This document shows positions 50,501 through 56,500 of a DNA stretch of 64,000 nucleotides, piece by piece. This DNA comes from Chrysemys picta bellii (lineage: Eukaryota), in NCBI RefSeq assembly GCF_011386835.1, contig NC_088810.1:24738001-24802000 (forward strand), written 5' to 3'. Within the stretch, counting starts at the first letter, position 1; the number at the start of each line of letters is the position of its first letter. A model generated the notes under the pieces. It saw nothing but the letters and a program-made list of their open reading frames with translations, searched no databases and was not told the DNA's origin. The translations under genes and the position numbers were made by a program.

Positions 50501-53500
50501 CCACCCAGCAGGCCCCGAGGGGCCCCCACACTCTGCGGTCTAGGGTCACCGGGTCCTGCCTCGGTGCCCGGGGCTGCACCCTCACGGTCCCTTCCAGCCC
50601 CACGTTGCTGGGAATCTATGATTGAGGATGGCCCCGCCCCCTGGAGGTGTTGGCCCCGCCCCTGAAGGGTACTCACTATTGGCCCCGCCCCCTGGAGACA
50701 CTCATACACCATTGGCACCACCACAGTGTACTTACTCACCATTGTCCCCGCCCAGGGAACTCACCATTAGCCCCGCCCCCAGGGAACTCACCATTGGCCA
50801 GGCCGCAGAGCGGCTTGAAGAGGAGGAGGATGTAGCAGAGGAAGAAGAGGGCGGGGATGACGCGCTCACACTCATCCTTGGCTGTGTCGAAGAGCCGCAG
50901 GCACTTGGTGTAGGGGGCGCCCAGGTCTTGGTTGCACACCTCGCCCACGTGCACCAGCCAGTACCACACGTTCCGCAGGGCCCGGGCTGTGGGGACGGCA
51001 TGGCAGGGTACCCTGGGGCAGCAGGGCAGGGGCCCGAGGGTGGGCGAGGTGGCGTAGGGACGATGGACATGAGTAAGGGGTTGCAAGACAGGGTACGAAG
51101 GCGGGATCCTGGGGCACAGGGGAGTGGGCATGATGACAGGGCTGTGGGGGGGATTGGGGCATGAGGGCAGCGCCGTGGGGCACCATGTGGAGCAGAGGAG
51201 ATGGGCTTTGCTCCAAGCCACCGCTGGTGCCTACGTCCCCCCGCCCTAGGGAGCACACAGAACGGAAGCAGGGTCGGGCTGGCTGAAGGGTTGGCTGGAG
51301 GGTGCGGGGACAGGTCAGGGGACTGGGGTTGGGGGCTGGCTGGGGGTAGTGAATGGGGTCCCAGACTGGAGGCTGGCATGGAGGAACAAGTTGAGGGTTA
51401 CAGTTTGGGGGCTTGCTAGGGTGAGGGGTCAGATAGGCCGGGGGCTGGCAGAGGGGGTGGATCGGGGTTTTCGGTGGTGTGACGAAGTGGGACTGTTCTT
51501 AATGTTTCCTTTGAATACTGTGTGGTTGCCTCAGTTTCCCCTATGCATTTCTTGTCTCCAGTGTGCATAAATGGCTGACACTCTGTCTCCTAGCAACAAA
51601 TGGCCAGGGCCCTTCCCCCCTTTGTTTTACTGCTCCCCAGTCACTTACTGTAAGAAGTGCCATTCACGGGGTGCAGTACATCCCACTGCTGCCACCAGTT
51701 GTCACGGAATCCCCGGGAACAGGGTCTAAAATAGAGCTTGTAGATCCCTCCGCCGGATCCATTCTGGGGCCCATTCTGGTGGAAGAGCAGGGGGGCTGAG
51801 GCCCAGGGGCAAAAGGACGTTGGGCACTGCAGTGATGCTGAGCACATGGCGGGGGGGGGGGGGTTCCCCTTCCCAGGGCTGCACGGCAATGCCTCCCCCA
51901 GCACATGGAGGGCTGCGTCCTGGGGACATGCCCCCCTACCCCGCTGCGGCCCCCGGCACTCCAGCCAGACACCCCCGTCTGCCCTCACTCCCCGGCCCCA
52001 GGCACCTTGTGACGAACTGGGCCTGTTCTCACTGTGGTCTGTGAATGCTGACAGGGGAGTGTGACTAGGATGGTCTGCATCGGGGGATGGGAGCCGGCCC
52101 AAGGGAACATACCTGAGCTTGTAACATGAGAACCCAGGAGGGGGTTGGAGGTCAGATGACTCCGGGGCCCGGGAAACTGAACAAAGGCTGTGGGAGGGGT
52201 CGCTGAAGGCAGAGGGCTGGAAGCAGGCTGGAAGGAGGCTGGAGAGATGGCTGGGAGGCAGAGATGGCTCTGACCCCCCAAGGGGGGTGGGCTGGCATGC
52301 CCTGGGACCCCAAGCTGGACCTAACTGAGGGGGGCCCTGTTGTCTGTGCCTGCAAGACCTGTCTTGGACTGTATTCCTGTCATCCAAATAAACCTTCTGC
52401 TTTACTGGCTGGCTGAGAGTCATGGTGAATCGCAGGAAGCCGGGGGTGCAGGGCCCTGAGTCCCCCAATACTCCGTGACAACTGGTGGCAGCGGTGGGAT
52501 CTACTGCACCCCGTGGACGGCGCTTCCTGCAGTAAGTGACTGGGGAGCAGTAAAACGAAGGGGGATTGACGGGGACCAGGCGTGCTGAAGAGTGAGAGAG
52601 AGACGGTTATTACCCCTGGGAGTGTGTGACCAGCGAGAAGGACTTTTGCAGTAACAGGGTCCCCCGGGGGGATCGCAGCGAGTGGTCCCAGGGGCGGAGG
52701 AGTCTGCAGCTCGACCCTGGCAGAGAGGTGGTGACCTCGAGAAGGGCTGGCACACTAGGGGTCCCCCTGGGAACTGTGGGGAGCTGTGAGCACACAGGCC
52801 GGTGAGTGGCCAGCAGGAAGATGTATGCCAAGCGGCTTAAGAGCGACCTGGTGGAGCTGTGCAAGCAGAGGCGGCTGCGCATTGGGAGGCTCACCAAAGA
52901 ACAGCTCATTGCCCAGCTAGAGGCGGAAGATCGCGCGAATGAACCGATCCCTGTGTCTCAGGGAAGCAGCCTGGCAAATGCAGCGCAGGCACCAGTGTCT
53001 GTCCCAGCTGGGAGTGGTCAGCTGGCTGCTGAGGGCTTCCCGAGACCCCTCCTTCCTATGCCTAGGGGAAGGGTGGGGAGGAGCCCAGCAAATACCGAAG
53101 GCGCCGTGGCCCCCCCGGCCAGCAGGGGACCCTCCCGGCGAAGCTCGCCGGCCAGCAGAGGATCCTCCCGGCGACGTTCGGCATCCGGGGAGCGGAATTG
53201 GCTGGAATGGGAGAAAGAGCTAAAACTGAGAGAGCTGGAGGATCGTGAACAACAGAGACAGCATGAAGAGAGACAGCGTCAGCATGAACGGGAGGAGAAA
53301 GAGAGACAGAGACAGGAGAATGAGAGACAGCATCAGCGTGAACTGGAACTGGTGAGATTGAAGGGCAGTGAACCCCCGGCTGCGGTGAGTGATGGGGGAC
53401 CCAGGACTGCACGGAGCTTTGATAAGTGCATCATGGCCCCATACAAGGAGGGGGAGGACATGGATGACTTCCTGGAGGCCTTTGAGACGGCCTGCGAGCT

Positions 53501-56500
53501 GCACCGGGTTGATCCCGCGGACAGACTCCGGGTCCTTACCCCCTTACTGGACCCCAAATCTGTGGCATTGTACCGCCAACTGGGAGAGGCAGAGAAAGGG
53601 GACTACGAACTATTCAAAAAGGCCCTGCTACGTGAGTTTGGGCTGACTCCTGAGATGTACCGGGGAAGGTTCCGGAGTCAAGATAAAACCCCTGAGATCT
53701 CATATCTGCAACTAGCCGTCCGCATGGAAAGATACGCCAGCAAGTGGGCTGGTGGGGCCCAGACGAAGGAGGACCTGATTAAACTGCTGGTACTGGAGCA
53801 ACTGTATGAGCGGTGCCCATCCGACCTGAGGCTGTGGTTGGTGGACAGAAAGCCAGAGAACCCGCGACACGCCGGGCAGCTGGCTGATGAGTTTGTAAAG
53901 AGCCGGTCAGGGGGTGGCAGGGAGGAGCCCCAAAGGAACAGGCCCGCCGTGATGCAGAGAGAGAGTCACCCTGGGACCTCCCAAAGAGGGAATATGGGGA
54001 GTCCCCTCCCACGGGGAATGCCCAGCGTCAGGGACAACCGACCGGCTCGAGGGGACCCACAGGACATGAGCTGCTATTACTGCGGCCGAAGAGGCCACGT
54101 TCGGGCCCAGTGCCCCAAGCTCAAGGACAGACTGAGCAGACCGAACCCGCATAGGGTTAACTTGGTAGAGGCCCAGACGGACGAGGGGCAGGCTTCTCAC
54201 GCAAGAGGGGCTGGCAGCTTATCAACTGCTCAAGAGAGAGAAGGGCCCCAGGCCAGCTCCTCTAGGGGGCTGGATGCCCCAGACTCAGGGTTTTTGGTTT
54301 ATACGGTGGGCGCGGGGCTGTCCCTCCGGAGAGAGTACCTTGTTCCCCTGGAGGTGGATGGGAGGAAGGTCAATGGATACTGGGATACGGGCGCAGAGGT
54401 GACGCTGGCCCGGCCCGAGGTGGTGGCCCCAGATCAGGTGGTGCCCAACTCCTACCTGACCCTGACGGGGGTGGGCGGAACACCAGTCAAAGTGCCCGTG
54501 GCAAGGGTACACCTGAAGTGGGGGGCCAAGGAGGGCCCCAAGGATGTGGGGGTACACCCGTATCTGCCCACTGAGGTATTGATGGGGGGGGACCTGGAGA
54601 ACTGGCCAAGCAACCCCCAAAAGGCACTGGTTGTGACCCGCAGTCAGAGCCGGCGAGGGGCCCTGCGCCCTGGCCTTGGGGGGGGTGCCTTGCCTGAGGC
54701 GCAGGACCCTAACCTGGTGGGGAGGGAACGCCCAGGGACGCGGCTCAGGGAGGCTGCAGCTTCGGACCCAGCGGGCGATAAAGAGCAGGTGGCCATCCCT
54801 GTCCCAGCTGCTGAGTTCCAGGCCGAGTTACAGAGAGACCCCTCCTTGCGGAAGATAAGGGACCTGGCCGACCTCAATGCGGTACAGACCATGGAACGAG
54901 GTGGCCGGAAAAGGTTCCTGTGGGAGAAGGGGTTCCTGTACCGAGAATGGGCTCCCCCAGGGAAAATGGAGTCAGGGGGGATCAGGAGGCAGCTGGTGGT
55001 ACCCCAGAAGTATCGCCGCCAGCTGCTGTGCCGGGCCCATGACATTCCCCTCTCAGGGCACCAGGGAACCTGGCGTACCCAGCAGAGGCTGCTACGGAGC
55101 TTTTACTGGCCTGGGGTCTTTGTTACTGTCCGACAGTACTGCCGATCCTGTGACCCCTGTCAGAGGGGGAGGAAGGCCTGGGACAAGGGGAAAACAGCTT
55201 TAGGACCCTTGCCCAGCATAGAGGATCCTTTCCAGAGGGTGGCCAAGGTAAAAAGGGCGGCTCTGAACCAAGAGAGCCCAAAGCACAGACCTCCAGACTG
55301 GAGCGCTGGGAGAAGACCACAGCCCAGTTGGAACCCCAGAGGTATGGGGGTGGGAAAAGGGCACAGGCCGCATAAACCTTCCCACATGCGAACTGCGAGT
55401 GCCATCAAGCACCCCCGACCTAAGGGGGGGCGTGGAACGGAAGGGGCCTGGTGTAATTCTCACCAAGGAACTGGAGGGATGCGGGGGCATCCATGGGAAC
55501 GGGGGTAGGTTCGAACTTCCCCGGGTCACTGGCTAAAGTGACCCCGCTCAGTTCGGTCTCGAAGGGGGGAGAGATGTGACGAACTGGGCCTGTTCTCACT
55601 GTGGTCTGTGAATGCTGACAGGGGAGTGTGACTAGGATGGTCTGCATCGGGGGATGGGAGCCGGCCCAAGGGAACATACCTGAGCTTGTAACATGAGAAC
55701 CCAGGAGGGGGTTGGAGGTCAGATGACTCCGGGGCCCGGGAAACTGAACAAAGGCTGTGGGAGGGGTCGCTGAAGGCAGAGGGCTGGAAGCAGGCTGGAA
55801 GGAGGCTGGAGAGATGGCTGGGAGGCAGAGATGGCTCTGACCCCCCAAGGGGGGTGGGCTGGCATGCCCTGGGACCCCAAGCTGGACCTAACTGAGGGGG
55901 GCCCTGTTGTCTGTGCCTGCAAGACCTGTCTTGGACTGTATTCCTGTCATCCAAATAAACCTTCTGCTTTACTGGCTGGCTGAGAGTCATGGTGAATCGC
56001 AGGAAGCCGGGGGTGCAGGGCCCTGAGTCCCCCAATACTCCGTGACACACCTCCAAACTGAAACCCCCTCCAGCCCCTCCTTCTCTGGGCTTGGTCTCTT
56101 TCCCGGGCCAGAAGGTCACCTGATCTCTTTGTTCACCTTTAGCTATTTCCTTGCAAGGGGGAAGGGCCCTGGCCATTTGTTGCCAGGATACAGAGTGTTG
56201 GCCATTTATGCGCACTGGAGACTTAAGAAATGCAGGGGGGAAACTGAGGCACCCACACAGTATTCAGAGGAAACATTAAGAACAGTCCCACTTCGTCACA
56301 GGTGGATGAGGGGGTGGAGTCAGACGGGGCAGGGTGGGTCAGGTGGGAGATTATGGCTGGGGGAAGTGGGCAGGCCGCAGGCTGAGTTGACCTGGGTGGG
56401 GCTGGCTGGGGGCAGGTGGAGCAGGTGGGGGGCTGGACAGGGGGCGGGTGGAGCAGGCCGCAGGCTGAGCTGACCCGGGCTGCGGGGGGCCAGCAGGAGG

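What the first reader, a model, noticed from the sequence alone, without database searches (positions are those of the whole stretch)
51478..56300. LTR-derived element with two inverted U3 ends and a true TSD: a fossil snap-back cDNA integration
Seen (minus strand, 56300 downward): U3-R-U5 LTR ending GTGACA at 51700, then AC, tRNA-Leu PBS (51697-51680), ~60 nt of leader, then the reverse complement of the first ~145 nt of the same LTR, ending GTCACA at 51478. The junction sits on microhomology TCCCCCTT/AAGGGGGA (~51614-51622); the related young element has AAGGGGGA at the same leader position (52558-52565). Both outer flanks are GGTGG. Inferred: after second-strand transfer the plus strand folded back onto its own U3, copied it, and integrase inserted a product with two U3 att ends. 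This gives a MITE-like, ORF-less element from a retroelement. The arms differ by ~9 substitutions plus small indels, so it is old, a two-template recombinant, or a member of a propagating family.
Basis: partly seen in the sequence, partly recalled or inferred. Interest (0 to 1): 0.8.

Follow-up and report, generated by a model that had tools for sequence, protein, structure and literature searches.

The report
Retrotransposon scar with two left ends
Inside an intron of a turtle gene sits a short, broken remnant of a jumping gene that has the same left end at both sides, facing each other; it most likely formed when two copies landed on one spot and the DNA between them was deleted, so it is a curious one-off scar rather than a new kind of mobile element.

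Summary
The geometry is real: two U3 ends (51478-51619 +, 56300-56157 -; 9 substitutions plus one 2-nt gap in 144 columns), GGTGG on both outer flanks, a PBS and 64 nt of leader, and a G-run microhomology at the fold-back junction. It holds a 186-nt copy of the host gene's own intron from 1.1 kb outside, has no AATAAA, carries a short slip duplication, and is split by a young 4,040-nt Gmr1-like element. So chromosomal template switching acted inside this copy. Best reading (0.45): integrase put U3 ends of two separate cDNAs into one 5-bp site, together or one after the other, and host repair deleted the middle by microhomology. Snap-back in reverse transcription stays possible (0.25), helped by CpG decay suggesting the host insert came later. 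Chance flank match 0.15, terminal template switch 0.08, spreading family 0.07. No second copy was found, but no turtle genome could be searched, so copy number and the empty site are untested. A single decayed locus, analogous to inverted LTR dimers and Mu killer. Interest 0.3.

The parts
56301..56305 (.). Target-site repeat GGTGG (on +), upper side
56157..56300 (-). Arm 1: U3 positions 1-144 of the outer LTR
   Evidence: U3 identity from 34 of 43 match to the young LTR start
56053..56156 (-). Outer U3, continued
   Evidence: 56300-56053 aligns to young LTR 1-202; 0 of 500 shuffles as high
56048..56052 (+). CACCT duplication of the nested young element, upper copy
52008..56047 (+). Nested young Gmr1-like LTR retrotransposon, internally deleted, opposite in orientation to the outer LTR; a later insertion
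   Evidence: LTRs 473 of 473 identical; own duplication; PBS and polypurine tract
55575..56047 (+). Young element 3' LTR (polypurine tract at 55561-55574 before it)
52806..55508 (+). Young element open frame: SCAN, zinc knuckle, protease-like motif (by eye), integrase zinc finger; integrase core, RT and RNase H absent
52008..52480 (+). Young element 5' LTR, AATAAA at 52387; PBS follows at 52483-52500
52003..52007 (+). CACCT duplication of the nested young element, lower copy
51962..52002 (-). 41 nt between the young insertion and the host insert; taken as outer U3 by position only
   Evidence: no convincing match to the young LTR or elsewhere in the window beyond a weak hit; inference
51776..51961 (-). 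186-nt insert copied from host intron 50350-50167, same strand
   Evidence: 93.6% over 188 columns, E 1e-75; edges
51716..51775 (-). Distal outer U3, with CCAGAATGG repeated 12 nt apart next to the insert edge
51700..51715 (-). Last 16 nt of U5, joined straight to distal U3; the poly(A)-signal block seen in the young LTR is missing (deletion inferred)
51680..51697 (-). Primer binding site, 17 of 18 identical to the young one, differing at a CpG
   Evidence: tRNA-Leu label recalled
51616..51679 (-). Leader, 64 nt; fold-back junction in the G run at 51620-51615
51478..51619 (+). Arm 2: inverted U3 start, 142 nt
51473..51477 (.). Target-site repeat GGTGG (on +), lower side
50167..50350 (-). Donor of the insert: start of a later intron of the host gene, from intron position +3 (donor GT at 50352)
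50987..56556 (-). Host intron holding the whole structure; gene with DC_STAMP exons, DCST2-like (name recalled from synteny), transcribed in the outer LTR's sense
   Evidence: exon frames; splice sites; Pfam DC_STAMP downstream

Best explanation
Two cDNAs of one older Gmr1-like turtle retrotransposon family were integrated at the same 5-bp site in opposite orientation. Either the second inserted into the first one's target duplication (double insertion), or one integrase complex held a U3 end from each cDNA. Both routes leave a long tail-to-tail inverted repeat or a break. Host repair removed almost all of the middle by microhomology in the G run, keeping LTR, PBS and leader of one copy and 142 nt of U3 of the other. 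In that repair or later, further template switches copied 186 nt of nearby host intron into the LTR, made a short slip duplication and removed the poly(A)-signal block. Much later a young relative inserted into the remaining U3. The remnant (778 nt without the young insertion) has no coding capacity, no polypurine tract and no terminal direct repeat, so it cannot retrotranspose. Shown: the anatomy, the young element's later arrival, the local source of the insert. Inferred: two donors, host joining, the poly(A)-block deletion, the order of the older events.
For: Both ends stop exactly at the CA with a 5-bp repeat, the duplication length of the young relative, which points to integrase at both ends. 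The insert's source is 1,128 nt outside the element and 1,611 nt from the copy; capture in a particle followed by integration next to the source is very unlikely, so template switching happened on this chromosome. Four to five junctions fall within 350 nt (51616-51961) with microhomology (CCCCAG, G run), as in germ-line multi-template insertions (PMC8421209, passages). Inverted LTR-retrotransposon tandems with a target motif between them exist in Drosophila, two Rover copies (PMC5932611, passages). [quoted passage not shown] A related element inserted here again later. Arms differ by 9 of 142, the insert pair by 6 of 183, the direction expected if the arms began as two templates.
Against: The arm and insert divergences do not differ significantly (Fisher p 0.29; non-CpG 6 of 142 against 5 of 183, p 0.54), so nothing shows two templates. 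CpG decay suggests the insert is younger than the element: 4 of 6 CpGs of the young leader/U5 region are decayed in the outer copy, 0 of 7 in the insert copy (p 0.02), and 3 of 6 arm CpG copies against 1 of 14 in the insert pair (p 0.06) (post hoc, and the young leader is only a stand-in ancestor). If so, the insert says nothing about how the fold-back formed. The inner target copy that would prove double insertion is not present. The insert sits 160-350 nt from the fold-back junction, not in it. I found no in vivo example of two-donor integration (1 paper listed).
Confidence: 0.45

Rival explanations
1. Snap-back in reverse transcription. After second-strand transfer the plus strand folded back at the G run and copied its own U3; re-priming made the hairpin a linear duplex with two U3 ends, and integrase inserted it. 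The missing poly(A) block could be a premature first jump of the same enzyme. The host insert came later, in the loop of the inverted repeat.
For: Exact ends and 5-bp repeat. The junction uses the longest exact word shared by the U3 piece and the young leader. Only 64 nt of leader were kept, as for a short plus-strand extension. CpG data suggest the insert is a later, separate event. The PBS itself shows a CpG-type change, so the arm differences can be age alone; both arms changed at one CpG in opposite ways (TG/CA).
Against: A fold-back gives one end, so a further step is needed (inference). No precedent in the listings. It needs at least one independent chromosomal event in the same few hundred bases. 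Microhomology does not name the enzyme.
Confidence: 0.25
2. Two independent insertions a short way apart in this intron, tail to tail, then a deletion that removed both inner parts and some host DNA; the GGTGG match is chance.
For: GGTGG is 1.4% of host-intron positions (10 of 724) and 2.1% within 200 nt (8 of 382). The locus came out of a genome scan, which selects such coincidences. Close inverted repeats promote such deletions (established knowledge).
Against: Needs a 1-2% coincidence. The flanking exons stay in frame, so both insertions had to lie in one intron. The flanks share composition (48% C) and some similarity (0 of 500 shuffles), but that is weak: 14 of 464 other window segments score as high.
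Confidence: 0.15
3. A normal provirus integrated with a GGTGG duplication; later one replication template switch left the leader, copied U3 backwards, and returned at the far LTR end using the element's own short terminal inverted repeat.
For: Explains a true duplication with no odd integration. Such four-point switches make single inverted repeats (PMC7954356, passages). The reversed U3 start and the U5 end share the last 3 nt and 6 of the last 7. The local insert shows such switching here.
Against: The return must hit the terminus on a 3-nt exact match, while the arm shares 19 exact 8-mers and 200 exact 6-mers with a 3-kb stand-in for the lost part. The longest such fragment in the ape set was 128 nt, median 12, against 142-144 here, with a multi-kb deletion on top.
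Confidence: 0.08
4. A member of a spreading non-autonomous family with two U3 ends, moved by an integrase-like or Ginger-type transposase.
For: It has the shape: TGTNR ends, 144-nt inverted repeats, short duplication, as for Ginger1 ends (PMC2836005, passages).
Against: One copy in 64 kb. The insert derives from the adjacent intron. The repeat is 5 bp GGTGG, not the 4-bp CCGG/CCGT of Ginger1. No retro-route: no polypurine tract or terminal direct repeat. Protein-level searches for the junction found nothing real, though they have little power for non-coding DNA.
Confidence: 0.07

Closest known systems
Gmr1-like (SCAN-bearing) Ty3/Gypsy LTR retrotransposons of turtles
   Same: The nested element has SCAN and integrase zinc finger; full-length relatives run SCAN, integrase, RT, RNase H (2 of 2 scanned), the order given in bioRxiv 10.1101/2025.03.03.638093 (passages), which also reports them abundant in turtles. 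26 of 28 hits carry turtle names; best 98%. The outer remnant shares U3 start, U5 tail, PBS and leader with it.
   Different: The outer remnant is another subfamily, has no coding DNA, and ends in a second U3 instead of a 3' LTR.
Inverted LTR-retrotransposon tandems from double insertion (Rover, Drosophila; PMC5932611, passages)
   Same: Two opposed copies at one target site, outer flanks a direct repeat.
   Different: Here the middle, with the diagnostic inner target copy, is gone; the target is not palindromic; extra local junctions.
Aberrant retroviral integrations repaired by host polymerase (PMC5041404, sections 10 and 12)
   Same: Viral DNA joined to viral DNA in either orientation, nearby host DNA copied in, short homologies, several templates.
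   Different: There one end is usually truncated with long duplications or deletions of host DNA; here both ends are exact with a 5-bp repeat.
Mu killer of maize (PMC3440606, passages)
   Same: Internally deleted element with two copies of the same end in inverted orientation, placed for read-through from a host gene. The arms here pair 134 of 144 nt as RNA, -258 kcal/mol.
   Different: DNA transposon; about 1.3-kb arms with transposase sequence; silencing shown. That paper disputes the read-through model. Here 144-nt U3 arms, now 4,537 nt apart, with no expression data.
Ginger1 DNA transposons (PMC2836005, passages)
   Same: TGTNR ends, 40-270 bp inverted repeats; the authors suggest these came from two LTRs in opposite orientation.
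   Different: No transposase, 5-bp non-CCGG repeat, no sign of further copies.
MMBIR-type templated insertions and four-point template switches (PMC8421209, PMC7954356, passages; PMC11724301, abstract)
   Same: Local templates, microhomology, several switches, inverted copies, germ-line occurrence.
   Different: Mostly shorter, with templates within about 100 bp; they do not explain an exact integrase-type second end.

Membership tests
Gmr1-like LTR retrotransposon (nested young element) | SCAN domain in Gag | tested here: met
   PF02023, E 5.7e-11
Gmr1-like LTR retrotransposon (nested young element) | Order protease, integrase, RT, RNase H | tested here: met
   Integrase before RT and RNase H in 2 of 2 full-length relatives scanned; the window copy stops after the integrase zinc finger; protease motif by eye only
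Gmr1-like LTR retrotransposon (nested young element) | Direct LTRs TG..CA, PBS, polypurine tract, target duplication | tested here: met
Gmr1-like LTR retrotransposon (origin of the outer remnant) | LTR, PBS and leader homologous to a typed member | tested here: met
   34 of 43 at U3 start, 85 of 93 at U5/PBS/leader; no coding DNA to type directly
Ordinary provirus or solo LTR | One U3 end and one U5 end inside the target duplication | tested here: not met
   Both ends are U3
TRIM or other small non-autonomous LTR element (definition recalled) | Direct LTRs with PBS and polypurine tract | tested here: not met
   PBS present; repeats inverted; no 3' LTR
Inverted tandem by double insertion | Outer flanks are a direct repeat of target length | tested here: met
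   GGTGG both sides; 1.4% chance locally
Inverted tandem by double insertion | A third target copy at the inner junction | tested here: inconclusive
   Absent, but the inner junction is a deletion junction
Inverted tandem by double insertion | The two halves come from different templates | tested here: inconclusive
   9 of 142 against 6 of 183, p 0.29; no family copies on hand
MITE / non-autonomous DNA transposon | Terminal inverted repeats and target duplication, no coding | tested here: met
MITE / non-autonomous DNA transposon | Many dispersed copies with different duplications | not testable with these tools
   One copy in the window; no turtle nucleotide collection; prokaryote scan 0 hits
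Ginger1 | TGTNR ends and 40-270 bp inverted repeats | tested here: met
   TGTGA, 144 nt; definition
Ginger1 | 4-bp CCGG or CCGT duplication | tested here: not met
   5-bp GGTGG
Ginger1 | Integrase-like transposase, or an autonomous partner with the same ends | tested here: inconclusive
   None inside the remnant; partner not searchable
One-ended aberrant provirus (host-repaired) | One truncated end with long host duplication or deletion | tested here: not met
   Both ends exact; definition
Mu-killer-like silencer | Inverted duplication of one element end inside a transcribed region | tested here: met
   Intron of a DC_STAMP gene; duplex
Mu-killer-like silencer | Small RNAs from the arms and silencing in trans | not testable with these tools
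   No expression data

The most novel reading that the evidence does not exclude
Gmr1-like integrase regularly inserts DNAs with two U3 ends (snap-back products or two-donor complexes), so turtle genomes hold many independent two-U3 mini-elements with their own duplications. They would be the missing step from LTR retrotransposon to Ginger-type DNA transposon proposed in PMC2836005. This copy, inside a transcribed intron, would also make a 144-bp U3 hairpin RNA that silences its family as Mu killer does.
Probability: 0.08. Interest if true: 0.75.

Novelty: new variant of a known kind. Interest (0 to 1): 0.3.

Why it matters
If the empty site confirms a true duplication, this is a natural germ-line record of a retrotransposon integrase joining two identical left ends at one site, and of a retroelement turning into something shaped like a DNA transposon. 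That bears on how Ginger-type transposons arose and on how inverted repeats that could seed silencing RNA appear in introns. As one decayed locus with no shown function it is mainly a case study. It also gives a simple genome-wide screen: same-end LTR pairs with matching flanks.

Tried and rejected
Looking for other copies. Window self-BLAST: none. Protein search with the 94-aa frame across the junction: 2 candidates, none scored. With the 72-aa U3 frame: none. phmmer of the junction frame on 1.84 billion proteins: 5 hits at 28-45% identity, none covering the whole frame; 3 of 5 carry bacterial or enzyme names and 2 are unnamed; all 5 dropped as chance. 0 of 28 Gag-Pol relatives matched the outer pieces by tblastn. 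Scan of bacterial and archaeal genomes for the U3 start: 0. These blanks say little, since the DNA is non-coding and no turtle nucleotide collection was on hand; the viral and metagenome contig collections stayed unchecked. Rfam on the whole window: 0 matches.

Rejected. Assembly artefact: arms and insert both diverge from their partners, and the only N runs are at 6223-7348. Intact U3-R-U5 LTR. Capture of the intron piece in a particle followed by integration beside its source: too coincidental. The insert being a whole intron: the real intron runs on to about 49826, and CCCCAG occurs 10 times in that 524-nt stretch. Flank similarity as proof of a continuous site: it beat shuffles but not the window's own sequence (14 of 464). 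One-ended integration with host repair: it does not give an exact second end. Dating by divergence: intervals overlap (2.9-11.7% against 1.2-7.0%).

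
Full report
Setting. The window is GC-rich vertebrate DNA. The structure lies in an intron (56556-50987, minus strand) of a gene whose neighbouring exons read in frame and whose later exons match Pfam DC_STAMP (2 of the 30 frames scanned, out of 246 long frames in the window). 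A BTB zinc-finger frame lies at 38816-39895. The names DCST2, DCST1 and ZBTB7B, and testis expression of DCST2, are recalled. The nested element's protein has 28 relatives at E 1e-30 or better, 26 with turtle names, the best 98% identical, so the host is a turtle.

What is there. On the minus strand from 56300: U3; a nested 4,040-nt element; 41 nt of presumed U3; a 186-nt host insert; 60 nt of distal U3; 16 nt of U5; AC; PBS; 64 nt of leader; then the reverse complement of the U3 start, ending at 51478. The arms align over 144 columns with 9 substitutions and a 2-nt gap. GGTGG flanks both ends. The young element fixes which end is U3: its polypurine tract precedes the same start motif, and 34 of the first 43 nt agree. 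Without the nested element the remnant is 778 nt and the arms are 492 nt apart.

The nested element. It is on the plus strand, has a CACCT duplication and LTRs identical at 473 of 473 (upper 95% bound 0.8%), so it is recent and came last. Its 900-codon frame has SCAN, a zinc knuckle and the integrase zinc finger and leaves its full-length relative at about residue 813. Both full-length relatives scanned place integrase before RT and RNase H, the Gmr1-like order (bioRxiv 10.1101/2025.03.03.638093, passages; SCAN in Gmr elements also PMC4131045, passages). Three Chrysemys proteins of 902-919 aa cover the same extent, so this shortened form is itself multi-copy.

First, 51961-51776 is a copy of 50350-50167, host intron DNA 1,128 nt beyond the element on the same strand: 93.6% over 188 columns, 6 substitutions once two columns past the junction are dropped. 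It starts at position +3 of that intron and ends on CCCCAG, which also lies in the adjoining LTR DNA, where CCAGAATGG repeats 12 nt apart. Second, the outer LTR has no AATAAA; its distal piece aligns to young LTR 297-370 and stops 9 nt before the young signal (24 of 2000 shuffles as high), then jumps to the last 16 nt of U5. The deletion is inferred from a relative of another subfamily, not from family copies. Third, the junction has six G against five in each parent, so the 8-nt microhomology needs a one-base slip; it is still the longest word shared by the U3 piece and the young leader.

What follows. Two exact CA ends with a 5-bp repeat are what integrase leaves, so I accept integrase at both ends as most likely; the repeat could be chance at 1.4% (10 of 724). 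The open point is where the two U3 ends were joined. A local insert can only have been templated at this chromosome. Host polymerases are described as copying nearby host or viral DNA of either strand, from several templates, at failed integrations (PMC5041404, sections 10 and 12), and multi-template insertions occur as germ-line variants (PMC8421209, passages). Inverted LTR-element tandems formed by double insertion are documented (PMC5932611, passages). Snap-back gives a one-ended hairpin and needs a further step. I therefore put two donors at one site plus chromosomal deletion first, at 0.45.

Evidence against that ranking. The insert may be younger than the element. Of 6 CpGs in the young U5/PBS/leader region, 4 read TG or CA in the outer copy, while the insert copy keeps 7 of 7 (p 0.02); the arms show 3 of 6 CpG copies decayed against 1 of 14 in the insert pair (p 0.06). 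These tests are post hoc, use a stand-in ancestor and are biased in the arms. Non-CpG divergence does not differ (p 0.54). If the insert is later, it no longer speaks against snap-back, which I hold at 0.25. Flank similarity, which looked strong against shuffles (0 of 500), is matched by 14 of 464 other window segments, so two nearby insertions with a chance match keep 0.15. A template switch returning at the LTR terminus (PMC7954356, passages) must use a 3-nt exact match among many better ones: 0.08. A spreading family: 0.07. These odds are my judgement, not computed.

Could it do anything? It cannot retrotranspose: no polypurine tract, no terminal direct repeat, no poly(A) signal. In the host pre-mRNA the arms could pair, 134 of 144 nt at -258 kcal/mol, now across 4,537 nt. 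That is the layout of Mu killer (PMC3440606, passages; that paper disputes the read-through model), but nothing here shows expression or silencing. Its shape matches the intermediate suggested for the origin of Ginger1 (PMC2836005, passages), yet it fails the Ginger1 duplication test and encodes no transposase.

Novelty. Five searches listed no paper on an LTR remnant with two U3 ends and a target duplication. I saw listings for these and read passages only of the papers named; the library lacks most subscription journals, and I read no supplements, where such loci could be tabulated (for example PMC5041404 Table S1, PMC5932611 Table S2). Also seen: PMC11899658 and PMC2857682 (passages), PMC11724301 (abstract and outline). 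All searches for a second copy were blank but weak, because no turtle nucleotide collection could be searched.

Verdict. A real and unusual structure, but one decayed, repeatedly rearranged locus whose parts each have known analogues. New variant of a known kind; interest 0.3, rising to about 0.75 if a genome-wide screen shows such two-U3 elements to be common or functional.

Noticed in passing
window 51961-51776 and 50352-50167: The host insert begins 2 nt inside a splice donor, as if copied from excised intron RNA in RNA-templated repair. The chance of an edge within 2 nt of a splice site is about 2% (120 of 5814 positions), post hoc.
   Followed up: partly
window 56513-56474 and 50994-50981 (minus): A second acceptor-like site with a branch-point-like CTGAC and the same CAG|CCCGGG as the real acceptor lies about 76 nt after the donor. 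The rest of the intron may be a later insertion bounded by a 9-nt repeat; use of this site would read into the LTR and stop at about 56223.
   Followed up: partly
window 52008-56047: Young, internally deleted Gmr1-like element with identical LTRs; same-extent proteins occur several times in Chrysemys, so a recently active non-autonomous family.
   Followed up: yes
window about 58751-59594 (minus): Separate AT-richer solo LTR, TGT..ACA ends with an apparent 4-bp AGAG duplication, between the head-to-head DC_STAMP-type genes.
   Followed up: no
window about 60750-61840: Another AT-richer, repeat-like block, flanked by copies of a 42-nt host repeat.
   Followed up: no
window 50734-50796: The splice donor of the exon after the element is present three times in a 27-nt tandem repeat.
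   Followed up: no
window 15442-15602 and 40469-40629: 161-nt dispersed repeat in inverted orientation, 90% identical.
   Followed up: no
window 41671-42160, 48961-49626, 623-757, 15233-15331, 19844-19992: One 72-nt minisatellite family recurs at several places in the window.
   Followed up: no
window 6223-6533 and 6543-7348: Two runs of N, assembly gaps far from the finding.
   Followed up: no
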